Positions 1-62,968 of a stretch of 64,000 nucleotides of DNA are shown here, piece by piece. The notes below the pieces were generated by a model that saw only the letters and a program-made list of their open reading frames with translations, had not been told where the DNA came from and did no database searches. The position numbers and the translations under genes were made by a program. Origin of the DNA: an uncultured Candidatus Saccharibacteria bacterium (GTDB lineage Bacteria; Patescibacteriota; Minisyncoccia; Phycocordibacterales; UBA9973); NCBI GenBank assembly GCA_964456475.1, contig CAYVZI010000001.1, forward strand, positions 11,762-75,761. The letters run 5' to 3'. Within the stretch, counting starts at the first letter, position 1, and each line of letters begins with the position of its first letter.

Positions 1-124
1 CAGATTTACTTAGCCTAACTCCTCGACCAATATTTGTGCAGTACCAGTAGAGTTTCAATATCTAAATCCTAATTTCTAATGTCTAAAACTAGGTTCTTGA
101 AAAAGGAATCTGTATAATTATTAT

Positions 125-1345: not shown

Positions 1346-1346
1346 G

Positions 1347-1456
1347 AGGTGCTAGCTTCTAGGGTCTAGGTTCTGGAAACTAAATTTGAGCATCAAGAAA
1401 AACAGCACACTTGTGCTGTTTTTCTACTAAACCCTAATCCCTAGACCCTAACCCCT
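1347..1456. repeat. CTAGG/TTAGGG-type palindromic element wrapping an intrinsic terminator
   Basis: G-arm ggtgctagcttctagggtctaggttctgg at 1347-1375. Inverse C-arm aaaccctaatccctagaccctaacccc at 1430-1456. Hairpin aaaaacagcacacttgtgctgttttt lies between them. Confidence 0.7.
1397..1426 (+). terminator. Rho-independent terminator after the S41 peptidase gene
   Basis: Stem cagcacac/gtgtgctg followed by a T-run. Confidence 0.75.
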
Positions 1457-1477
1457 CTTTGATGTAATATAAAGCTC

Positions 1478-4541: not shown

Positions 4542-4740
4542 TAAGGTAAATGATGAGGGGGGGGGCACCACTTGATGACAAAGTAGTGTCCTTATTTGTC
4601 TGTGTGGAAAACTATATGGTAATGTCGCACAATATATCTTTCACGACATTATATCCTAATATAATGTGCGTGAAAGATAGCGATTATTTTCCAACGTGAT
4701 TACACATCGGAAAATAATCTTTGGGCCGTAGACCCACACT

Positions 4741-4769
4741 GTCATTCCGGACTTGATACGGAATCCATG
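4741..4769 (+). repeat. hairpin element family GTCATyCCGGA-loop-TCCGGrATCCA, copy A
   Basis: gtcattccggacttgatacggaatccatg. The stem is attccg/cggaat. Confidence 0.7.
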
Positions 4770-4844
4770 AATGTATTCTCCCCTCGATGCCTGCCACAAA
4801 TTTTTTCAAAAAAGTTTTCAAAATTATTTTCTTACAAAAATTGT

Positions 4845-4875
4845 GTCATCCCGGACCCTGATCCGGGATCCATGG
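4845..4875 (+). repeat. hairpin element family, copy B
   Basis: gtcatcccggaccctgatccgggatccatgg. The stem atcccgga/tccgggat shows a compensatory change relative to copy A. Confidence 0.7.
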
Positions 4876-5130
4876 GTATCTGAGTTACATCTATGTGACT
4901 CCTTATATGCCTCTCATATATCAAATGGCCTTAAAACGCATTATACGAGATCAAAAATACGAGTTTAGCATCATTATCGACTTGATCCGATAATCCAGTA
5001 ATTTTCTAGTGTTAAAGCATTTTTTACTAATTAGGGTGAGTTGATGGTAGGTACCGTCAATGCAAGACCTTGAGTATTCTGTAATCAGAAAGCGAACGGT
5101 GTACAGTTCCTGTTAGGAAGTCGACTTCCC

Positions 5131-5175
5131 TTTTTAAAAAATAAAAAACGCCCCATACTTTCGGGGCGTTTTATG
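5131..5175 (-). terminator. intrinsic terminator of the 5193..6461 gene
   Basis: aaaacgccccatactttcggggcgtttt with a T-run on the minus strand. Confidence 0.8.
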
Positions 5176-5192
5176 TTTGATAGGTTTTTATC

Positions 5193-19776: not shown

Positions 19777-19808
19777 CTAGCGCCTAAAGCCTAGAGCCTA
19801 ACGCCTAG
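19777..19808. repeat. CTAGG-type element, single C-arm
   Basis: ctagcgcctaaagcctagagcctaacgcctag, preceded by the hairpin cccctccttggtaaaggagggg. Confidence 0.6.
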
Positions 19809-21076
19809 TTCTTCGGCAAATACAACATCGGATCAAGATAAGCGTTCAGCGCTGCCACAGGTGCTGTATACATTTTTCCATTACAAGCTTTACTTGGGAA
19901 ACTCTGAATACTTCCCGCGTCAGCTGCGATGATTGTGAGATGCAAATGCGGGCCAGTAGCGTACCCGGTAGAACCTGAATATCCCACAAGATCACCAGTG
20001 GAAACGCGTGTTCCATCGCCGACTTTTATCAACGACATGTGACCATAAAGGCTCGAGAGACCATTGTCGTATTTTATATAGATCCATTTTCCATATGAGG
20101 CCTTCGGACATGTGAGGTCTGTGTTTCCTGAACCTACGACCACACCAGAAGCCATGGCTTTGAGTGGTGTACCAATAGAAATACCAAAATCGATTCCATT
20201 GTGTGTTCCACTCGAATAGAGGCGTTTTGCGTCAACAGTGCGTCCAAAATGTTGCGTAATTTTTACATTATTAACAGGCCAAATGAGTGGACTGGAACCA
20301 GCCGGAGGGAGTGATTTTGGATCAAGCACGTACCTAAGTTTGGATTCATAATCGCGCAAATCCCCTTCCATTTGATTCTTGAGTGCAATCTTATTGGCAA
20401 GAAGTTTCTGGTATGCTTTCTCGCTGCTTTTTGTTGAAGCAAGGAGTGAATTTTTTTGAGCTTGTGTCTGCACGGTAATCGCACGCTGGTCTTTGAGTTC
20501 TGAATTGAGAGAAATTAATGTTTTCTTTGTTGTTTCTACTTCCGCCTTTTTTGTTTTGAGCACCTGGCCAGTTGTTATGAGTTGATTTGTCCTCTCGCGA
20601 ACTCCTTCTCGAAATGATTCGAGTTCACTTGCATACCGCCACGCATCAGAAAAATTTCGCATTGATGCAAGAGCTCCTACGTCTGAATGATCCTGGGCGT
20701 TCATCTCGCGAATGCTTTTGCCAAGTGCTGTTTTGAGATCATCAATCGACTCGTTTGTATTGGCAATCGTATTTCCAAGCAGGTCGATTTTGGCACTTGT
20801 TGCAGAAATCTTTGCCTCAGAAGCTTTGATGCTTGTGCTGAGTTTTTGTGCTTCAACAGTAAGACGCTTAATCGCATTTGAAAGTGTGTTCTTGTCGTTG
20901 CCAATAACAGTCAACTGATTTTGATACTGAGCAATTTCGGCATTCAGTGCTTCAAGTGCTTTGTTTTGATTGTCGATCTTCGTCTGGAGTTCGGAAGCAG
21001 TATCAGCACGAAGTACTGATGGAATGGCGATCAAGAGAGACAAACAAAAAAGAGTGAGAAATATGTTTCTTCGCAT
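19805..21076 (-). CDS. M23 (LytM) family peptidoglycan endopeptidase with N-terminal coiled-coil (EnvC-like)
   Basis: Signal peptide, a long coiled-coil, and a C-terminal M23 domain ...HNGIDFG...GHMS...HLHL. Confidence 0.85.
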   Translation of the reverse strand: MRRNIFLTLFCLSLLIAIPSVLRADTASELQTKIDNQNKALEALNAEIAQYQNQLTVIGNDKNTLSNAIKRLTVEAQKLSTSIKASEAKISATSAKIDLLGNTIANTNESIDDLKTALGKSIREMNAQDHSDVGALASMRNFSDAWRYASELESFREGVRERTNQLITTGQVLKTKKAEVETTKKTLISLNSELKDQRAITVQTQAQKNSLLASTKSSEKAYQKLLANKIALKNQMEGDLRDYESKLRYVLDPKSLPPAGSSPLIWPVNNVKITQHFGRTVDAKRLYSSGTHNGIDFGISIGTPLKAMASGVVVGSGNTDLTCPKASYGKWIYIKYDNGLSSLYGHMSLIKVGDGTRVSTGDLVGYSGSTGYATGPHLHLTIIAADAGSIQSFPSKACNGKMYTAPVAALNAYLDPMLYLPKN

Positions 21077-23987: not shown

Positions 23988-24046
23988 TCTAGGAATTAGT
24001 GATTAGGGATAAGGGAGTAGTGCCACAAATCCGCAATAAAAAATAA

Positions 24047-26654: not shown

Positions 26655-26723
26655 AATAAGTTTATAAAGCTAAAAGTTTTTAAAGTTTATAAAGTAAATA
26701 CATTTGAGTTCGCTTTATGAACC

Positions 26724-36475: not shown

Positions 36476-36543
36476 TTGTTTAATTTACCACAACTCGAGA
36501 ATTTGTGGAATTTTTTAGGATTTAGAGTTTAAGATTTAGAATT

Positions 36544-36584
36544 TCCACCTTTGGATAATTTATTTAAATTTATCCAAAGGTGGA
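36544..36584. terminator. 15-bp perfect palindrome hairpin
   Basis: tccacctttggataa-tttatttaaat-ttatccaaaggtgga. Confidence 0.6.
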
Positions 36585-36805
36585 TGCATTCCTTCCCCAA
36601 GCTTTTCAAATGGAATTGAAAGTCCGGCCGTGATTAGAAAAAGTAAATAATAGAGCGGTGTTGCAAGATAAAAAGAAACAATATCATTTCGTCTCCAATC
36701 TCTGTATCGTGACTGAAACCAAACAAAAAGAGTGTTGAGTGGGTAATAAAAGAGAGAAAGTATCGAGATGATTACTATTTTGATTGCAAAAATAATTGTT
36801 TTCAT
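36560..36805 (-). CDS. small membrane protein
   Basis: 81 aa with two hydrophobic helices. The C-terminus is read through the palindrome. Confidence 0.45.
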   Translation of the reverse strand: MKTIIFAIKIVIISILSLFYYPLNTLFVWFQSRYRDWRRNDIVSFYLATPLYYLLFLITAGLSIPFEKLGEGMHPPLDKFK

Positions 36806-39524: not shown

Positions 39525-39530
39525 ATTTCA

Positions 39531-39606
39531 GGGTTTAGGTGCTAGGGTTTAGGGGTTAGCAATTCGCACTCACTATACCCTAAACGCTATACCCTATACC
39601 CTAGCT
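39531..39606. repeat. CTAGG/TTAGGG-type palindromic element (G-arm, 16-nt spacer, C-arm)
   Basis: gggtttaggtgctagggtttaggggttagc ... ccctaaacgctataccctataccctagc. Confidence 0.7.
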
Positions 39607-42670: not shown

Positions 42671-42763
42671 ATATGAAGATAGTATACAGTATTTAGTATA
42701 CGGTATACAGTATTTCACAGTTTTATACTGTATACAAAATACAACATACTGTATACTGTATCC
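42671..42763. promoter_or_regulatory. divergent mntH/corA control region with five or six iterated ATAC-N-GTAT palindromes
   Basis: gtatacagtat at about 42682 and 42703, the variant gtatacggtat at 42696, and atactgtatac at 42725 and 42747-42757. Confidence 0.55.
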
Positions 42764-48267: not shown

Positions 48268-48762
48268 TTGAAAACAGGTTCGCGACTCGGAAGAATTCTC
48301 TTAGGGATAGGAGCTTTTCTTGCAACGAGTGGTTTCAGCTACTCGTTTGATTATTTTGTTTACCCGATTGTTACCTATTATTTCGGGTTCTCAAAAAGTT
48401 TAATTATTTTATTTCTCGCTGCGCTTATCATGAATTATTTCGTTGTACTTTTGTACGATCTGTTCAAAAAAGATTTTTTTGGATTTGAGGCACTTAAGGA
48501 AATGAAGGAGTCAGGTAACGGCAGAGGTATGATGTACAGAATAATGAAATGGGGCGATATTCCCTTCTTTATCTTTCTTTCATGGTACGACCCAATATTT
48601 GCGGTTTTATACAAAAGGAGGAGTAAAAGCTTTAACGGCTTTAGAAGGAGAGATTATTTTATTCTTGTGCTTAGTACATTAATTGGGTGTATTATCTGGT
48701 CAGGATTTTGGTCAGCAGGTATTGAATTTGTTAAATACATATTTCCACAATGGTTCTCCTAG
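48268..48762 (+). CDS. hypothetical membrane protein (TTG start)
   Basis: 4 predicted TM helices. Its 3' end is duplicated at 50530-50660. Confidence 0.5.
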   Translation: MKTGSRLGRILLGIGAFLATSGFSYSFDYFVYPIVTYYFGFSKSLIILFLAALIMNYFVVLLYDLFKKDFFGFEALKEMKESGNGRGMMYRIMKWGDIPFFIFLSWYDPIFAVLYKRRSKSFNGFRRRDYFILVLSTLIGCIIWSGFWSAGIEFVKYIFPQWFS

Positions 48763-48822
48763 CAATAGCGAGAGCCATTTTTTTATCCTATTTTTAAACA
48801 ATAATGAGAGTCCCTCGTTTCG
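48693..48822 (+). repeat. direct repeat copy 1 (~130 bp; 3' end of the 48268 gene plus 60 bp downstream)
   Basis: About 97% identical to 50530-50660. Confidence 0.85.
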
Positions 48823-50382: not shown

Positions 50383-50529
50383 GTCTATATCCTCCTTTTC
50401 AAGCCTAGTTTTATTCCTGAAAACCTTCCGGAACCTTGCTTAATTATATTTTACTATAATAGGAAAGGTTGTCAATGAAAATACTCATATTCAGTGACTT
50501 AAATAAATAAGTACTGCCACAGGCTGTCT

Positions 50530-50660
50530 TATCTGGTCAGGATTTTGGTCAGCAGGTATTGAATTTGTTAAATACATATTTCCACAATGGTTCTCCTAGC
50601 AATAGCGAGAGCCATTTTTTTATCCTATTTTTTAAACAATAATGAGAATCCCTCGTTTCG
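50530..50660 (+). repeat. direct repeat copy 2 (non-coding remnant of the 48268 gene 3' end)
   Basis: Same as copy 1 apart from 3 differences. It has no start codon. Confidence 0.85.
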
Positions 50661-54124: not shown

Positions 54125-54475
54125 GGGTCATCCTGAATTTATTTCAGGATCCAGGGCTATAGACAAATCTTTCCATTCTGGATTATGCTCTTGTATCAAA
54201 TTAATCTTCCAATTTCTATGCCATGCTTTTAATTGTTTTTCGCGTTCAATCGCAGAAATTGGATTTTCAGACTCTTCATAATAAACCAGAGTATTAATTT
54301 TATATTGCTTTGTAAATCCGCCTGCAAGACTATGTTTGTGCTCATATATGCGACGGATTAAATCATTTGTAACACCTATGTATAAAGTGCCGTTCTTTTT
54401 GTTTGCCAAAATATAAACATAATAATGTTTATCGTACATACAAATACTGGATCCTGAAATAAATTCAGGATGACC
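54125..54475. mobile_element. 351-bp cassette with perfect 30-bp terminal inverted repeats enclosing a GIY-YIG nuclease gene
   Basis: Left end gggtcatcctgaatttatttcaggatccag (54125-54154). Right end is its exact reverse complement (54446-54475). Each end is itself an 8-bp-stem hairpin. Confidence 0.6.
54128..54439 (-). CDS. small GIY-YIG nuclease superfamily protein (COG2827-like)
   Basis: MYDKHYYVYILANKKNGTLYIGVTNDLIRRIYEHK...REKQLKAWHRNWKINLI. The ORF-track N- and C-terminal residues are translated from the inverted repeats, so the start was trimmed to MYDK. Confidence 0.75.
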   Translation of the reverse strand: MYDKHYYVYILANKKNGTLYIGVTNDLIRRIYEHKHSLAGGFTKQYKINTLVYYEESENPISAIEREKQLKAWHRNWKINLIQEHNPEWKDLSIALDPEINSG

Positions 54476-54488
54476 CAAACACACATAT

Positions 54489-55916: not shown

Positions 55917-55920
55917 AGTA

Positions 55921-55988
55921 GGGTTTAGGTTTTAGGTGTTAGGGTTTAGTAATTCGAATTGTATTTCTAAATCCTAGACCCTAACCCC
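55921..55988. repeat. CTAGG/TTAGGG-type palindromic element
   Basis: gggtttaggttttaggtgttagggtttag-N17-ctaaatcctagaccctaacccc. Confidence 0.7.
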
Positions 55989-55990
55989 TG

Positions 55991-56995: not shown

Positions 56996-57057
56996 GCATT
57001 TGATCTGACTTTATAAACTTTACAAACTTCACAACTTTTAACTTACTAATTTGCCAA

Positions 57058-58365: not shown

Positions 58366-58412
58366 ATATACAAGTATACTCTAGTAAAACTCTAAATCCA
58401 AAACTCTAAATA

Positions 58413-58904
58413 CTAAAATTGGACTGGCACTGCATAGACGAGCCCTGTTGTACTCACAAACACGATTTTTCCCATATCAGTTGAAGGTGGAGTCAATAGC
58501 ATGAGATCATTTCCGAAATACATTGGATATCCATCTGTGGTATTCGGTACAACAAGGTCAGATGGTTTTGTTATCGGCATTCCCATGTCATCGAATACTT
58601 GTGCTGTTCCAGCAATAGCATATCCACCTGGAGTACCTCCGTACATCCAACCACACTGATTGATATATCCCGACACTTTCACGGGAAAAACTATTTTCGT
58701 ATTCGAATCAGGTTTTTGCACAGTGAGACCACACGGCAAACGAAGTAATGACTTTATGTTGAATGAATCCCAAAGAACTCTTTCATCCTTGAAGAACCCA
58801 GAGAAAATGAATGCCAAAAAAATAAGTATTGCAATAACTGCAATAAAGTTTACTCCGCCCTCGCCACGTTCGTGTATCATTAAAACATTATAGCAATAAA
58901 TCAT
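58413..58904 (-). CDS. hypothetical membrane-anchored protein
   Basis: TM helix IAVIAILIFLAFIF followed by a ~120-aa beta-rich domain. Confidence 0.5.
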   Translation of the reverse strand: MIYCYNVLMIHERGEGGVNFIAVIAILIFLAFIFSGFFKDERVLWDSFNIKSLLRLPCGLTVQKPDSNTKIVFPVKVSGYINQCGWMYGGTPGGYAIAGTAQVFDDMGMPITKPSDLVVPNTTDGYPMYFGNDLMLLTPPSTDMGKIVFVSTTGLVYAVPVQF

Positions 58905-59614: not shown

Positions 59615-59734
59615 ATTTTTAAGTTTTTAAAGTTTACATGTATTATATCACTTAAATTGTATATAGTCAAATCCCCCGCGAGCTAAGCTCTTGGGGGATT
59701 TGACTTGTTTTAATGCTTTTGTGTTTTCTTGTGG

Positions 59735-60922: not shown

Positions 60923-62023
60923 TTAGCTGACAAGTCGAACGATGTCATGGAATGTCACGTAGAGCATCAGTAGAATAAGCAAAAGAAAACTAACCTTATT
61001 CAGACCGACAATTACTTTGGTTGGAATGCGAGAACGTCCGTTTTTTGCAAAAAATTCCATAATACAACGCCCTCCATCAAGAGCCGGGATTGGCAACAAA
61101 TTGATGACAGCCAAATTGATCGAGATAAGTGCAACAAACGAAAGGAATGATCCAAATCCAAGTGAATATGCCTGACCTGCAATTTGAGCGATCCCGATAG
61201 GACCAGACACCTGTCCGACCATACTATCCCCACCACCAAACGAACTTGAAATAAGGAGACCGAGTGATTCAATAATGTGCACAAACTGATTTCCAGTGTA
61301 AGTAATTGCAACTTTCATTGATTGCCAGAATGGAAGGCGGACGTGAGTAACTTCGGCGAGACTAATACCCACTGTTGGCGTATCACCTACTTTTTCTGCT
61401 TTTGGAACAACAACAAATGACTCACTGTTCCCGCTTCTATCTACAGTAAAAACAATCGAGCCAGTCGAATGTGCTTTGATAAAATGAACGACATCGGAAA
61501 CAGTTTTTGGTGTCGATGTATCTTTTGCACTAGCGAGCGCTACAACAGAATCACCGGTACGCAGTCCAGCAATCTCTGCCGGGCTGTTCTTTGCAACCGA
61601 TGAGATGATAGTTGTATCTCCCCCAATAGTAACCGCATCTGGAAATTCGCCAGACTGCGCGAGAAATCCAATTGAAAATGAGCCAATATATAAAACGACT
61701 GCAATCACAAGATTGGCGACAACTCCAGCAAGCACAACGGCGATACGTTTCCACAATTTCTGATACGAAAAAAGAGTCGAGGTGTCTGACTGCCCTACTT
61801 CGGTCAGTTCTTCTCCGTAAATCTTTACAAAACCACCGAATGGAAGCCAGTTGAGCGAAAAAAGTGTTCCCTTCCAGGTGAAGAGTTTTTTTGCACGTGG
61901 CGGATACCCTATTCCAAATTCGTCTACACGGATACCAAAAGCTTTGGCAACAAAAAAATGCCCGAGCTCATGCCCGACAACGAGCACTACTATTACGATA
62001 AGGAAAATGAGGATGGTTTGCAT
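60923..62023 (-). CDS. rseP: RIP metalloprotease RseP (M50 site-2 protease with PDZ)
   Basis: HELGHFFVAKAFG (HExxH), an internal PDZ, and an LDG motif near the C-terminus. Confidence 0.9.
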   Translation of the reverse strand: MQTILIFLIVIVVLVVGHELGHFFVAKAFGIRVDEFGIGYPPRAKKLFTWKGTLFSLNWLPFGGFVKIYGEELTEVGQSDTSTLFSYQKLWKRIAVVLAGVVANLVIAVVLYIGSFSIGFLAQSGEFPDAVTIGGDTTIISSVAKNSPAEIAGLRTGDSVVALASAKDTSTPKTVSDVVHFIKAHSTGSIVFTVDRSGNSESFVVVPKAEKVGDTPTVGISLAEVTHVRLPFWQSMKVAITYTGNQFVHIIESLGLLISSSFGGGDSMVGQVSGPIGIAQIAGQAYSLGFGSFLSFVALISINLAVINLLPIPALDGGRCIMEFFAKNGRSRIPTKVIVGLNKVSFLLLILLMLYVTFHDIVRLVS

Positions 62024-62029
62024 AAGAAG

Positions 62030-62058
62030 GTTCTAGGATCTAGCTTCTAGGTTCTAGT
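62030..62058. repeat. CTAGG-type element arm overlapping the 3' end of the four-helix-bundle gene
   Basis: ggttctaggatctagcttctaggttctag. Confidence 0.65.
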
Positions 62059-62390
62059 TTAATAATCATAACTCGCAACATTTTGCTTACTTCTTCGAGT
62101 AATTCAAGGTGTGACTGAATACTTAATGAATACAAATCTCGACAAAGAAATAATTGAGTCTCAAGCTCTGAAGCGGAGCCATATGATAAGCACAAAAAAT
62201 GTGCGTAATCTTTTCGAGTCTTACGACTTGAACCTTCTGCAATATTCGAGATGATTGAAACACTGGCTCTCCTCATCTGAGACTGAAGAGCATATATTTC
62301 CATTTGAGGAAGTTGAATTTGATAGACAAGCTTAGTAAGATCATAAGCCTTTTTCCAAACTGTCAGATCTTTATACGAATTAAGTGACAT
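62040..62390 (-). CDS. four-helix-bundle protein (23S rRNA intervening-sequence protein family, TIGR02436-like)
   Basis: YKDLTVWKKAYDLTKLVY...LQSQMRRASVSIISNIAEGSSRKTRKDYAHFL..GSASELETQL matches the family consensus. Confidence 0.8.
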   Translation of the reverse strand: MSLNSYKDLTVWKKAYDLTKLVYQIQLPQMEIYALQSQMRRASVSIISNIAEGSSRKTRKDYAHFLCLSYGSASELETQLFLCRDLYSLSIQSHLELLEEVSKMLRVMIIKLEPRS

Positions 62391-62398
62391 TTTGTATT

Positions 62399-62433
62399 CT
62401 CTAGAACCTAGACCCTAGAAACTAGCACCTAGT
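62399..62433. repeat. CTAGG-type element arm just upstream of the four-helix-bundle gene
   Basis: tctagaacctagaccctagaaactagcacctag, inverse to 62030-62058. Confidence 0.65.
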
Positions 62434-62968
62434 TCATTACTTCTTGTTCCTTTGTTTCAAATACACTTTCGAGTTTTGCGTTCGCGTCAGTTACGCGTTT
62501 TTGAATTTCATCTTTCGTACGACGGTCATCATCTTCTGGAAGTTCCTCTGATTTCAATTCACTCATTGCAGTCTCGCGTTCTTTACGAACACTCACACGA
62601 GCATCTTCGAGCTTTTCCTTGAGTACTTTTACAAGTCTTGAACGATTTTCTGTGGTGAGTGTTGGGAAAATCACACGCATGCCATCACCGTCTACAGCAA
62701 GTGACACACCGAGGTTAGCAGCGGCAATTGCACGCTCAACATCCTTGATCACGCTCTTATCCCAACACATAACGCGAAGCGTTTTTGCGTCTTCAATATT
62801 GACCGAGCCCACGTTCTTGATTGGCTGAAACGATCCATAGGCTTCCACCATTACGCCATCAAGGTACGCCGGCGATACACGACCGGTATGCAAGCGCGAA
62901 TACTCGCGTGCGAGCCATTCGACTGATTCTTTTAATCCATTGTCTAAAGTTGTGTAATTGAATGCCAT
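62429..62968 (-). CDS. frr: ribosome recycling factor
   Basis: RRF-typical length and pattern ...LHTGRVSPAYLDGVMVEAYGS... Confidence 0.9.
   Translation of the reverse strand: MAFNYTTLDNGLKESVEWLAREYSRLHTGRVSPAYLDGVMVEAYGSFQPIKNVGSVNIEDAKTLRVMCWDKSVIKDVERAIAAANLGVSLAVDGDGMRVIFPTLTTENRSRLVKVLKEKLEDARVSVRKERETAMSELKSEELPEDDDRRTKDEIQKRVTDANAKLESVFETKEQEVMN

What the first reader, a model, noticed from the sequence alone, without database searches (positions are those of the whole stretch)
1347..1456. Second intergenic repeat family: G-arm/C-arm palindromic elements built of CTAGG/TTAGGG-like units
The units are GGGTTTAGG, GCTAGGG, TTAGGGG and TCTAGG; the C-arm carries the complements. Paired arms occur at 1347-1456, 39531-39606, 55921-55988 and 62030/62399. 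Single or degenerate arms occur at 61-93, 19777-19808, 36519-36545 and 58383-58420. At 1347-1456 the arms wrap a canonical terminator hairpin, extending its stem by about 28 bp. The units resemble telomeric TTAGGG/CCCTAA, and the G-arms carry three or four G-tracts, so they may form G-quadruplexes. This is a lineage-specific family of transcript-end, processing or insulator elements, and its function is unknown.
Basis: seen in the sequence. Interest (0 to 1): 0.6.

Follow-up and report, generated by a model that had tools for sequence, protein, structure and literature searches.

The report
Heptamer-repeat hairpin arms bracketing IVP genes
The "G-arm/C-arm" elements are real inverted pairs of about 31-nt arrays of a 7-nt unit (GKTYTAG); this kind of intergenic repeat is already described in Xanthomonas and cyanobacteria, and here and in many other bacteria it brackets small "23S rRNA intervening-sequence protein" genes, which gives a testable lead to the unknown function of both.

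Summary
Each arm is a tandem array of 4-5 heptamers, consensus G-K-T-Y-T-A-G. There are 11 in-phase arrays against 0.05 expected. All are intergenic and abut stop or start codons. They are identical in independent Logan contigs.

The host is a Patescibacteria (Paceibacteria/Nomurabacteria-like) genome that uses essentially no Shine-Dalgarno motifs.

The architecture matches the published GGGAATC/GGGGAYT heptamer repeats of Xanthomonas and Nostoc: a G-rich array after a stop codon, a C-rich array before the next start, about 4 units, 20-70 nt apart, between co-oriented housekeeping genes. It is therefore a new member of a known kind, not a lineage-specific invention. G-quadruplex potential is weak, and the telomere likeness is coincidental.

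The new point concerns the pair at 62024-62434. It encloses a PF05635 "23S rRNA IVP" four-helix-bundle gene. The closest relative lacks the whole 405-bp cassette, and a distant relative has it at the same site.

Of 71 metagenomic IVP genes, 80% have a period-7 array on a flank, against 24% of control genes. The same holds in 8 of 8 plasmid records from cultured strains, and for XCC0516/XAC0531 and Nostoc alr0549.

Most likely mechanism (inferred): the arms pair in the transcript into an RNase III-cleavable stem, as shown for the Coxiella IVS.

The parts
1346..1380 (+). G-arm of pair 1 (GTGCTAG CTTCTAG GGTCTAG GTTCTGG). It starts 1 nt after the TAG stop of the S41 peptidase gene (125-1345).
1396..1425 (+). 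Cargo in the loop of pair 1: a 13-bp hairpin with an A-tract on one side and a T-tract on the other, i.e. an intrinsic-terminator-like structure that could act in both directions.
   Evidence: (fold) and direct reading; not called by the simple scan
1427..1458 (+). C-arm of pair 1 (CTAAACC CTAATCC CTAGACC CTAACCC CT), 20 nt upstream of the rplI ATG at 1478.
39528..39561 (+). G-arm of pair 2 (GGTTTAG GTGCTAG GGTTTAG GGGTTAG), 4 nt after the dnaB stop. It is followed by a loop that starts AATTCG.
39573..39606 (+). C-arm of pair 2 (CTATACC CTAAACG CTATACC CTATACC CTAG), ending at the recR ATG (39607).
55917..55951 (+). Arm of pair 3, G-type on the + strand. On the transcribed (-) strand it is the C-rich leader that ends 2 nt before the gatB ATG (55916). 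Over G-arm plus loop start (AATTCG) it matches pair 2 at about 31 of 37 positions.
55967..55990 (+). Arm of pair 3, C-type on the + strand. On the - strand it is the G-rich array directly after the mltG stop (55991).
62024..62059 (-). 3' arm of the IVP cassette. On the - strand it reads CTAGAAC CTAGAAG CTAGATC CTAGAAC C. It contains the IVP stop codon, encodes the last residues (KLEPRS*), and ends 5 nt before the rseP ATG (62023).
62040..62390 (-). 116-aa ORF in the loop of pair 4. It matches PF05635 23S_rRNA_IVP (E 4e-31), TIGR02436 four helix bundle protein, and PDB 2GSC/XCC0516 (E 2e-16).
62398..62434 (-). 5' arm of the IVP cassette. On the - strand it reads GTGCTAG TTTCTAG GGTCTAG GTTCTAG. 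It starts at the frr stop codon TAG (62429-62431).
62..93 (+). Solo AT-rich C-type arm (CTAAATC CTAATTT CTAATGT CTAAAAC TAG), upstream of a promoter-like site (97-124) and of the S41 peptidase ATG.
19777..19808 (-). Solo arm at a convergent junction. On the - strand it is a G-type array (CTAGGCG TTAGGCT CTAGGCT TTAGGCG CTAG) that begins with the stop codon of the M23 peptidase gene (19805-21076).
23988..24024 (-). On the - strand it is a C-type leader (CACTACT CCCTTAT CCCTAAT CACTAAT TCCTAGA) running into the murG ATG (23987).
36514..36544 (-). Degenerate AT-rich arm between a small ORF (36560-36805) and the aspS/asnS-like gene.
58383..58412 (-). Degenerate arm (TTTAGAG TTTTGGA TTTAGAG TTTTA on the - strand) after the stop of 58413-58904. 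It is conserved with changes in L002.

Best explanation
What it is: the elements are inverted pairs of about 31-nt heptamer arrays (4-5 GKTYTAG units). This is the structure that brackets PF05635 (IVP / 'S23p' / four-helix-bundle) genes.

The window holds:
- one complete cassette, arm-IVP-arm, at 62024-62434;
- three ORF-less pairs, whose loops carry nothing or a terminator;
- at least five solo arms.

How it most likely works: when the surrounding operon is transcribed, the G-rich 5' arm and the C-rich 3' arm pair into an imperfect 21-30-bp stem. That stem is cut by RNase III, as happens to IVP-carrying intervening sequences in 23S rRNA. The cut releases the loop. It leaves the upstream mRNA ending in a G-arm stub just after its stop codon. 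It leaves the downstream mRNA starting with an unstructured, G-poor C-arm leader just before its start codon, in an organism that has no Shine-Dalgarno sites. This would let the cassette sit inside essential operons (frr-rseP, dnaB-recR, mltG-gatB) without polar damage.

Shown here: the anatomy, the predicted pairing, the IVP cargo, presence/absence between relatives, and the general IVP-heptamer association.

Inferred: cleavage by RNase III in this organism, the leader function, and descent of the ORF-less pairs from IVP cassettes.
For: Anatomy in the window:
- Period-7 arrays occur far above chance, all at gene boundaries.
- The arms are predicted to pair. Energies are -20 to -48 kcal/mol, z -3.0 to -5.1. 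In the full 426-nt cassette a 25-bp closing stem appears in both the MFE and the centroid structure.
- The loop cargo of pair 4 is a PF05635 gene.
- Only 1 of 68 genes has a Shine-Dalgarno core upstream.

Comparison with relatives:
- L002 (86-90% nucleotide identity) has frr and rseP 4 nt apart. The whole 405-bp cassette is missing.
- L020 (MltG 48% identical) has G-arm-IVP-C-arm at the same junction.
- L073 has a solo G-arm at that junction.
- IVPs 60-70% identical to the window's sit upstream of rseP, trxB-like or other genes, always with a CTAGAAC array running to the next ATG.
- Two ORF-less pairs match at about 31 of 37 positions over G-arm plus loop start, so they are dispersed copies of one element.

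Generality of the IVP-heptamer link:
- 57 of 71 IVP genes have a period-7/14/21/28 array on a flank, and 30 of 71 on both flanks. Genes more than 250 nt from the IVP in the same loci score 25 of 103 and 5 of 103 (Fisher p 2e-13 and 2e-9).
- The two flanks are inverted-complementary in 46 of 71 loci, against direct similarity in 11 of 71.
- The upstream array has G>C in 28 of 35 cases, and the downstream array has C>G in 41 of 52. The modal array length is 30-31 nt.
- 8 of 8 inspected plasmid records from cultured strains show the arrays.
- XCC0516/XAC0531 and Nostoc alr0549 lie next to published heptamer arrays.

Experimental precedent (PMC4990558): the Coxiella IVS with an S23p ORF has a 28-bp terminal stem that RNase III cuts in vitro, with the ends mapped inside the stem. 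It also has a variable number of heptameric repeats upstream of the ORF.
Against: - The stems are imperfect, with a mismatch or small internal loop about every 5-7 bp.
- Cognate arms are no more complementary to each other than arms taken from different loci (16.5 against 15.9 of 21). There is no pair-specific covariation, so pairing could be a by-product of inverting one repeat unit.
- Many arms are solo.
- Many close IVP relatives keep only the downstream C-arm.
- No transcript data exist for this organism.
- An RNase III gene was not looked for.
- No target-site duplication or mobility enzyme was found.
Confidence: 0.4

Rival explanations
1. Protein-binding arrays. The heptamer arrays are the cognate nucleic-acid sites of the IVP protein itself, a positively charged homopentameric toroid. 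Five in-phase cores would match five protomers. IVP would then act as an autoregulator, a global post-transcriptional regulator, or a mobility factor, and the ORF-less arrays would be its sites in trans. This can coexist with the RNase III model.
For: - IVP genes and heptamer arrays are tightly linked.
- Arrays are typically 30-31 nt, i.e. five cores at period 7.
- What is conserved is a 5-nt core, YTAGG, not the pairing.
- 2GSC (XCC0516) has 5 chains and is described as a homopentameric toroid.
- The related Avd is a pentameric, positively charged barrel that binds a defined RNA element (10.1101/2023.10.23.563531).
- Nostoc workers postulate a binding partner of heptamer repeats that is still unidentified (10.1101/2022.06.06.494920).
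- HutP recognises UAG-N4-UAG-N4-UAG, the same spacing (own knowledge).
Against: - No binding data exist.
- The unit type does not track IVP similarity. L116 paralog 2 has TAGAACC-type arms but is only 31% identical to the window IVP, whereas paralog 1 with different arms is 40% identical.
- The window's other pairs use GGTTTAG-type units rather than the CTAGAAC units around its only IVP.
- The Coxiella S23p appears not to be translated.
- The arrays can equally be read as 4 units (Rehm et al.).
Confidence: 0.25
2. Neutral or selfish simple-sequence repeats. Heptamer arrays arise by polymerase slippage, which is proposed to favour 7-nt units, and persist where they are tolerated, namely in short spacers between co-oriented genes. 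IVP genes and hairpins merely accumulate in the same permissive sites. There is no host function.
For: - Heptamers are the most abundant long simple-sequence repeats in many bacteria (Mrazek 2007, as cited).
- Turnover between close relatives is rapid. At the mltG-gatB junction the window has a full pair and L002 only a degenerate C-arm.
- Units differ by lineage at the same junction: rpsM-rpsK carries CTAGAAC in L011 and AATTACG in L017 and L025.
- There is no covariation between arms.
Against: - Polarity is strict: G-rich after the stop, C-rich before the start.
- Array length peaks narrowly at 30-31 nt.
- The frr-IVP-rseP cassette is conserved between relatives only 48% identical in MltG.
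- Two ORF-less pairs are near-identical copies including non-repeat loop sequence.
- The arrays are 4-fold enriched next to IVP genes relative to other genes in the same contigs.
Confidence: 0.2
3. G-quadruplex / i-motif DNA or RNA structures. Four G-tracts per arm fold into a G4 that modulates transcription or translation.
For: - There are four G-tracts per G-arm.
- Arms 39530-39559 and 1428-1463 reach G4Hunter 1.52 and -1.68.
- GGGAATC oligonucleotides form G4 in vitro (PMC4692102).
Against: - Most tracts are GG. 7 of 9 arms score below 1.2, and the IVP-cassette arms score 0.36 and -0.64.
- Homologous positions in related lineages carry G-poor units (AATTACG, AATTAAG, CTAGAAC) that cannot form G4.
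Confidence: 0.05
4. Transcription terminators or insulators. The long hairpins stop RNA polymerase between genes.
For: - They lie at gene ends.
- One pair encloses a terminator-like hairpin.
Against: - The arm hairpins have no U-tract. Only the inner hairpin at 1396-1425 does.
- They lie inside conserved operons such as frr-rseP, where relatives have gaps of 3-5 nt, and dnaB-recR. Termination there would silence essential downstream genes, because the C-arm runs into the ATG and leaves no room for a promoter.
Confidence: 0.07

Closest known systems
GGGAATC / GGGGA(C/T)T heptameric repeats of Xanthomonas and Nostoc (Rehm et al. 2015, PMC4692102)
   Same: - 7-nt unit with about 4 units (28-31 nt).
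- Inverted pairs 21-67 nt apart between co-oriented housekeeping genes (groES/EL, atpA/G, atpD/C).
- The G-rich strand lies within 50 nt after a stop, and the C-rich strand before the next start.
- Function unknown.

   Different: - The unit here is GKTYTAG, with weak G4 potential.
- The host is a small-genome Patescibacterium.
- Rehm et al. did not note that one array abuts the IVP gene XCC0516/XAC0531, or that alr0549 is an IVP.
23S rRNA intervening sequences carrying an S23p/IVP ORF (Coxiella, Leptospira; Warrier et al. 2016, PMC4990558)
   Same: - A PF05635 ORF sits in the loop of a 25-28-bp terminal inverted-repeat stem.
- Heptameric direct repeats lie upstream of the ORF.
- The element is regarded as selfish.

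   Different: - The window's element lies between protein-coding genes (frr/rseP), not in helix 9, 25 or 45 of 23S rRNA.
- Its arms are made entirely of heptamers.
- ORF-less copies are dispersed in other operons.
- RNase III cleavage is untested here.
TAACTGA heptamer direct repeats of Beggiatoaceae, cyanobacteria and Bacteroidetes (MacGregor 2015, PMC4679880)
   Same: - 2-6 heptamers ending a few nt before start codons, including in ribosomal-protein operons.
- The genes lack Shine-Dalgarno sites.
- A translational role and an unknown binding protein are proposed.

   Different: - TAACTGA sets are almost all direct and solo, with one inverted case.
- They resemble the solo C-arms and the AATTACG arrays of other Paceibacteria more than the paired elements here.
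STRR (short tandemly repeated repetitive) heptamers of heterocystous cyanobacteria (Mazel et al. 1990; cited; own knowledge)
   Same: - Tandem heptamers in intergenic DNA with lineage-specific units.
- The same taxa dominate the IVP-bearing plasmids (25 of 29 records), and there the arrays flank IVP genes.
   Different: - Cyanobacterial arrays can be much longer (129 nt at alr0549).
- No published link to IVP was found in the searched library.
REP/BIME elements and MITEs
   Same: - Short intergenic palindromic repeats dispersed between co-transcribed genes.
- Presence/absence differences between relatives.
- ORF-less derivatives alongside an ORF-carrying copy.
   Different: - The arms are internally tandem-repetitive.
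- No target-site duplication is visible at the frr/rseP site.
- There is no RAYT or transposase. A RAYT-like ORF with different REP hairpins occupies the same junction in L047.
DGR accessory protein Avd and its RNA site
   Same: Same protein superfamily: a pentameric, basic four-helix-bundle barrel that binds a specific RNA element.
   Different: - No reverse transcriptase, template repeat or variable repeat was found in the window.
- The Avd-binding element is a stem-loop, not a heptamer array.

Membership tests
Heptameric SSR inverted pairs (Rehm-type) | Tandem repeats with a 7-nt unit | tested here: met
   TRF reports period 7 for all main arms. In-phase TAG/CTA arrays number 11 against 0.05 expected.
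Heptameric SSR inverted pairs (Rehm-type) | Preference for about 4 units | tested here: met
   4.3-4.6 copies in the window. Median 4.3 and mode 30-31 nt in IVP flanks.
Heptameric SSR inverted pairs (Rehm-type) | Intergenic, between co-oriented ORFs; G-rich strand after the stop, C-rich strand before the start | tested here: met
   All four pairs lie at tandem junctions. Across relatives, arrays near a start have C>G in 8 of 9 cases, and arrays near a stop have G>C in 10 of 17.
Heptameric SSR inverted pairs (Rehm-type) | G-quadruplex-forming (four tracts of at least GGG) | tested here: not met
   G4Hunter reaches 1.2 in 2 of 9 arms. Most tracts are GG.
IVS-type IVP cassette | ORF of Pfam PF05635 / TIGR02436 | tested here: met
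   E 4e-31 and 2e-27; PDB 2GSC E 2e-16. This applies to pair 4 only.
IVS-type IVP cassette | Terminal inverted repeats forming a stem of about 25-28 bp that encloses the ORF | tested here: met
   A 25-bp closing stem appears in both the MFE and the centroid structure of 62015-62440(-).
IVS-type IVP cassette | Located within a 23S (or 16S) rRNA gene | tested here: not met
   It lies between frr and rseP. The window contains no Rfam rRNA hit.
IVS-type IVP cassette | Excised from the transcript by RNase III | not testable with these tools
   Only the Coxiella precedent is available.
REP / MITE | Target-site duplication and an associated transposase (RAYT or IS) | tested here: not met
   The empty site in L002 (TAA-ccga-ATG) shows no duplication. 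Pfam scans of 60 of the 69 called window genes found no transposase. Most of the remaining genes carry precomputed Pfam annotations in L001, none of them a transposase.
Intrinsic terminator | GC-containing hairpin followed by a U-tract | tested here: not met
   Not met by the arms themselves. Only the inner hairpin 1396-1425 has a T-run.
HutP/TRAP-type multimer RNA site | At least 3 UAG triplets separated by 4-nt spacers | tested here: met
   The spacing is met. The HutP comparison rests on own knowledge.
HutP/TRAP-type multimer RNA site | A HutP or TRAP homologue encoded in the genome | not tested
   None appeared among the Pfam-scanned window genes. The rest of the genome is unavailable.
Telomeric repeats | Terminal position on a linear replicon, with long arrays | tested here: not met
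   The arrays are internal, have 4-5 units, and lie between housekeeping genes.

The most novel reading that the evidence does not exclude
Intergenic heptamer arrays across bacteria, and the equally unexplained PF05635 'IVP' proteins, may be two halves of one widespread system. The arrays in question include cyanobacterial STRR, Xanthomonas GGGAATC and these Patescibacteria GKTYTAG arrays. In this reading the pentameric IVP toroid recognises arrays of five heptamer-spaced cores, on RNA or single-stranded DNA. The arm-IVP-arm unit would be a mobile cassette that excises itself at the RNA level and seeds ORF-less arrays throughout operons and rRNA genes.
Probability: 0.22. Interest if true: 0.85.

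Novelty: new member of a known kind. Interest (0 to 1): 0.6.

Why it matters
On their own, the window's elements are a Patescibacteria instance of a repeat class described but never explained: STRR since 1990, and the Xanthomonas/Nostoc and Beggiatoa heptamers since 2015.

What adds value is the strong and phylogenetically broad association between these arrays and IVP genes. IVP function has been unknown since the protein was found in rRNA intervening sequences in the 1990s. I did not find the association stated as a generality in the searchable literature.

The association names a concrete candidate partner for the repeats, a crystallised pentamer from a culturable organism (XCC0516). It also names a concrete processing enzyme, RNase III. 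Both old questions therefore become directly testable in Xanthomonas or Nostoc.

It also shows how a selfish gene can live inside essential operons of a minimal genome.

Tried and rejected
- Three-frame stop insulator. Because 7 mod 3 = 1, three TAG-bearing units give stops in all frames. Rejected as general: AATTACG, GGGAATC and CCCTACT units give no such stops.
- Shine-Dalgarno mimic. Rejected: the organism has essentially no SD motifs (1 of 68 genes) and the C-arms are G-poor.
- Known structured RNA. No Rfam family reached its gathering score and no tRNA or tmRNA was found.
- Anti-phage defence annotation for the IVP. No PADLOC hit.
- Pair-specific covariation as evidence for a selected stem. 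None found.
- Co-variation of IVP sequence with unit type, using two paralogs in one contig. Not supported.
- More divergent IVP genes in the 80 related genome loci, using a custom HMM. Only the window and L020 carry one within the roughly 20 kb held per genome.
- Junction-type bias. Arrays are 87% at tandem junctions, but so are 87% of all junctions in these genomes, so the test is uninformative here.
- Extending the source genome. Logan contigs added only about 4 kb and no new arrays.
- Shared loop motif TTAGYAATTCG as a family marker. There are only the two exact hits, and the 1-mismatch count is at chance level.
Full report
**1. The observation**

Every arm is a tandem array of 3-5 heptamers with an invariant TAG, which reads CTA on the complementary "C-arm".

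- Requiring three in-phase TAG or CTA triplets at period 7 finds 11 distinct arrays in 64 kb. Order-2 Markov simulations give about 0.05.
- Tandem Repeats Finder independently reports period 7 and 4.3-4.6 copies for the main arms.
- Over 38 units the consensus is G-K-T-Y-T-A-G, that is, a conserved YTAGG core plus two variable positions.
- All arms are intergenic. G-type arrays start 0-5 nt after a stop codon, and C-type arrays end 0-22 nt before a start codon, read on the transcribed strand.
- The elements are reproduced base for base in independently assembled Logan contigs, so they are not assembly artefacts.

**2. Context**

The window is from a Patescibacteria (CPR) genome of the Paceibacteria/Nomurabacteria type. 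The nearest genome, L002, has MltG 87% identical; the others are about 45% identical.

The flanking genes are ordinary housekeeping genes:
- S41 peptidase / rplI
- dnaB / recR
- mltG / gatB
- frr / rseP
- ftsW / murG

Only 1 of 68 genes has a 4-nt Shine-Dalgarno core upstream, against 8.8% of random 17-mers. Translation initiation here does not rely on SD pairing.

**3. Structure**

Each pair is predicted to fold, with z-scores of -3.0 to -5.1 against dinucleotide shuffles. The helices are interrupted every 5-7 bp, where the variable unit positions face each other.

At 1347-1456 the arms enclose a 13-bp hairpin at 1396-1425 with a T-run, which is terminator-like. The arms add about 21 pairs, not 28.

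Cognate arms are no more complementary to each other than arms taken from different loci (16.5 against 15.9 matches of 21). There is therefore no pair-specific covariation. The pairing follows from inverting one unit.

G-quadruplex potential is modest. G4Hunter reaches 1.2 for 2 of 9 arms.

**4. The pair at 62030/62399 is a gene cassette**

The 116-aa ORF between the arms (62040-62390, minus strand) matches:
- Pfam PF05635 "23S rRNA intervening sequence protein" (E 4e-31);
- TIGR02436 "four helix bundle protein";
- PDB 2GSC, which is Xanthomonas XCC0516, deposited with five chains.

Its stop codon and last five codons lie inside the 3' arm. In a fold of the whole 426-nt unit the two arms form a 25-bp closing stem in both the MFE and the centroid structure.

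Comparison with relatives:
- In L002 (86-90% nucleotide identity in the flanking genes) frr and rseP are 4 nt apart. The entire 405-bp arm-IVP-arm unit is absent, and no target duplication is visible.
- In L020, a distant relative (MltG 48% identical, GC 50%), the same junction reads frr-[AGGTTCTAGGTTCTAG]-IVP (66% identical)-[CTAGAACCTAGCAACTAGAACCTAGAACC]-rseP.
- In about 20 other relatives the gap is 3-5 nt.
- L073 has a solo G-arm at that junction. L047 has a RAYT-like ORF with unrelated REP hairpins there.
- Metagenomic IVPs 60-70% identical to the window's sit upstream of rseP, of a trxB-like gene, or of other genes. In each case a CTAGAAC array runs from the IVP stop to the next ATG.

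Two of the ORF-less pairs (39528 and 55917) match at about 31 of 37 positions over the G-arm and the first loop bases (AATTCG). They are dispersed copies of one element rather than independent slippage products.

**5. The association is general**

I fetched 80 metagenomic loci encoding IVP homologues that are 33-70% identical, from contigs of GC 29-61%.

- Of 71 loci with enough flank, 57 (80%) have a period-7/14/21/28 array within 100 nt upstream or 90 nt downstream, and 30 (42%) have one on both sides.
- Other genes in the same contigs, more than 250 nt from the IVP, score 24% and 5% (Fisher p 2e-13 and 2e-9).
- 71% of all flanking arrays have a period that is a multiple of 7.
- The two flanks are reverse-complementary beyond 20 shuffles in 46 of 71 loci. 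Direct similarity reaches that level in only 11 of 71.
- The upstream array is G-rich in 28 of 35 cases and the downstream array is C-rich in 41 of 52. The modal length is 30-31 nt.
- Units differ by lineage: CTAGAAC, CTCGTAT, CCAACTG, CTGTGTC, TACTCAC, AACTTTA and others.
- L097, whose IVP is 48% identical to the window's, carries TAGGGTT-type arms like the window's ORF-less pairs.

In complete plasmid records, 25 of 29 IVP hits are in cyanobacteria, mostly the heterocystous genera known for STRR heptamers. All eight regions I read show the arrays:
- Nostoc punctiforme, CAGGAGT;
- Calothrix, GGGTGTA;
- Anabaena sp. 90, GGTGACA, between cas6 and cas4;
- Picosynechococcus, between cmr2 and cmr3;
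- Nostoc edaphicum, GGGAGTA;
- Nostoc PCC 7120 plasmid pCC7120gamma, CTCTGCC;
- Azospirillum;
- Gemmatirosa.

**6. Literature**

- Heptamers are the most abundant long simple-sequence repeats in many bacteria (Mrazek 2007, as cited).
- Rehm et al. 2015 (PMC4692102) described GGGAATC/GGGGAYT repeats in Xanthomonas and Nostoc. These show a preference for four units and occur as inverted pairs 21-67 nt apart between co-oriented genes such as groES/groEL and atpA/atpG. The G-rich strand lies within 50 nt after a stop, or on the non-coding strand before a start. Their function is unknown. This is the architecture seen in the window.
- Their supplementary tables list a 4-unit array 6 nt from bccP that overlaps the annotated start of XCC0516, and likewise for XAC0531. 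They also list a 129-nt array 55 nt upstream of Nostoc alr0549. XCC0516 is the crystallised IVP. alr0549 is annotated as a four helix bundle protein elsewhere. Those authors listed XCC0516 only as "conserved" and did not comment on its family.
- MacGregor 2015 (PMC4679880) described TAACTGA x2-6 directly upstream of SD-less start codons and proposed an unknown binding protein.
- A Nostoc preprint likewise invokes an unidentified heptamer-binding partner.
- Warrier et al. 2016 (PMC4990558) showed that the Coxiella 23S IVS has an S23p ORF inside a 28-bp terminal stem and is excised by RNase III in vitro. They noted a variable number of heptameric repeats upstream of the ORF, and cited XCC0516 as a homopentameric toroid.
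- Avd of diversity-generating retroelements, of the same superfamily, is a basic pentameric barrel that binds a defined RNA element.
- Four further full-text searches found no paper that states the IVP-heptamer link as a general rule. The library is incomplete, so earlier work may exist outside it.

**7. Wider clade**

In 1.37 Mb from 80 related genomes, period 7 is the period most enriched in non-coding DNA. There are 73 intergenic arrays at period 7, against 17-33 for periods 6, 8, 9 and 10. Of period-7 arrays, 47% are intergenic although only 10% of the sequence is non-coding.

Some lineages use G-poor units such as AATTACG, which form the whole spacer between rpsM and rpsK. At that same junction L011 and L024 carry CTAGAAC-type G+C arms. 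Junction type is uninformative, because 87% of all junctions are tandem.

**8. Interpretation**

The anatomy is secure. How it works is inferred.

I favour an RNA-level model (confidence 0.4). The arms pair in the operon transcript, RNase III cuts the stem as in rRNA IVSs, the loop is released, and the downstream gene is left with a short, G-poor, unstructured C-arm leader suited to SD-less initiation. Two observations fit this: the fixed G-then-C polarity, and the fact that the C-arm next to the downstream ATG is the best conserved part.

Against it stand the imperfect stems, the lack of covariation, and the many solo arms.

The main rival (0.25) is not exclusive of the first. It holds that the arrays are binding sites of the pentameric IVP itself. 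Five in-phase cores per 31-nt array, and a conserved core rather than conserved pairing, fit this. However, unit type does not track IVP similarity in the one within-contig test available.

The remaining rivals are neutral slippage products (0.2), G-quadruplexes (0.05) and terminators/insulators (0.07).

**9. Verdict**

The finding is real. As an element class it is a new member of a known, functionally unexplained kind: heptameric inverted repeats, and IVS-type IVP cassettes.

Its interest comes from tying these two old puzzles together with quantitative support, and from pointing to tractable experiments: XCC0516 or alr0549 protein against cognate arrays, and rnc mutants.

Noticed in passing
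window 54127-54474: A 118-aa GIY-YIG ORF (54128-54484, minus strand) is bounded by inverted copies of GTCATCCTGAATTTATTTCAGGATCCAG, at 54127(+) and 54474(-). The roughly 400-bp unit between gatB and dnaJ is absent from L002, the closest relative.
   Followed up: partly
window 4741, 4845, 21100, 43684 (plus 54127 and 54474): REP-like hairpin family GTCATYCYGRAY...RTCCRGGATCC, scattered in intergenic DNA. Two copies lie in the 650-bp non-coding stretch 4542-5192.
   Followed up: partly
window 48692-48795 and 50529-50632: A perfect direct repeat of at least 104 bp flanks a 1.8-kb segment that holds a GNAT acetyltransferase gene and two small ORFs. It could mark a duplication or the ends of an inserted island.
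   Followed up: no
window 26658-26695, 57008-57038, 59616-59635: Tandem 9-mers (AAGTTTATA, ACTTTACAA, TTTTAAAGT) lie directly upstream of start codons. The array at 57008 is absent from the orthologous spacer in L002.
   Followed up: partly
window 42679-42761: Inverted heptamer arrays ATAGTAT / ATACTGT fill the 45-nt divergent spacer between an Nramp gene and a CorA gene and extend into the Nramp start. They could be an operator for metal-transport regulation.
   Followed up: no
whole window: Shine-Dalgarno motifs are essentially absent, and in fact depleted: 1 of 68 genes against 8.8% of random 17-mers.
   Followed up: yes
L047 3403-4286: At the same frr/rseP junction, another Paceibacterium carries a RAYT-like (HUH, 'NHFH') ORF flanked by REP hairpins CCTAAGCATTGCTTAGG. 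This junction seems to be a hot spot for small selfish cassettes.
   Followed up: no
L017 18273-18303, L025 18256-18286, L043, L047, L063 and others: Other Paceibacteria use AATTACG/AATTAAG heptamer arrays as the entire spacer between genes such as rpsM and rpsK, ending in the ATG. The position and period are the same as in L011 and L024, but the unit is unrelated.
   Followed up: partly
L165 (Anabaena sp. 90 pANA02), L166 (Picosynechococcus PCC 7003 plasmid): IVP genes with heptamer arms are inserted inside CRISPR-cas operons, between cas6 and cas4 and between cmr2 and cmr3.
   Followed up: no
L020 2521-2884: The IVP ORF of this relative has an apparent 1-nt deletion near codon 18. It is either a pseudogene or a MAG sequencing error.
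   Followed up: no
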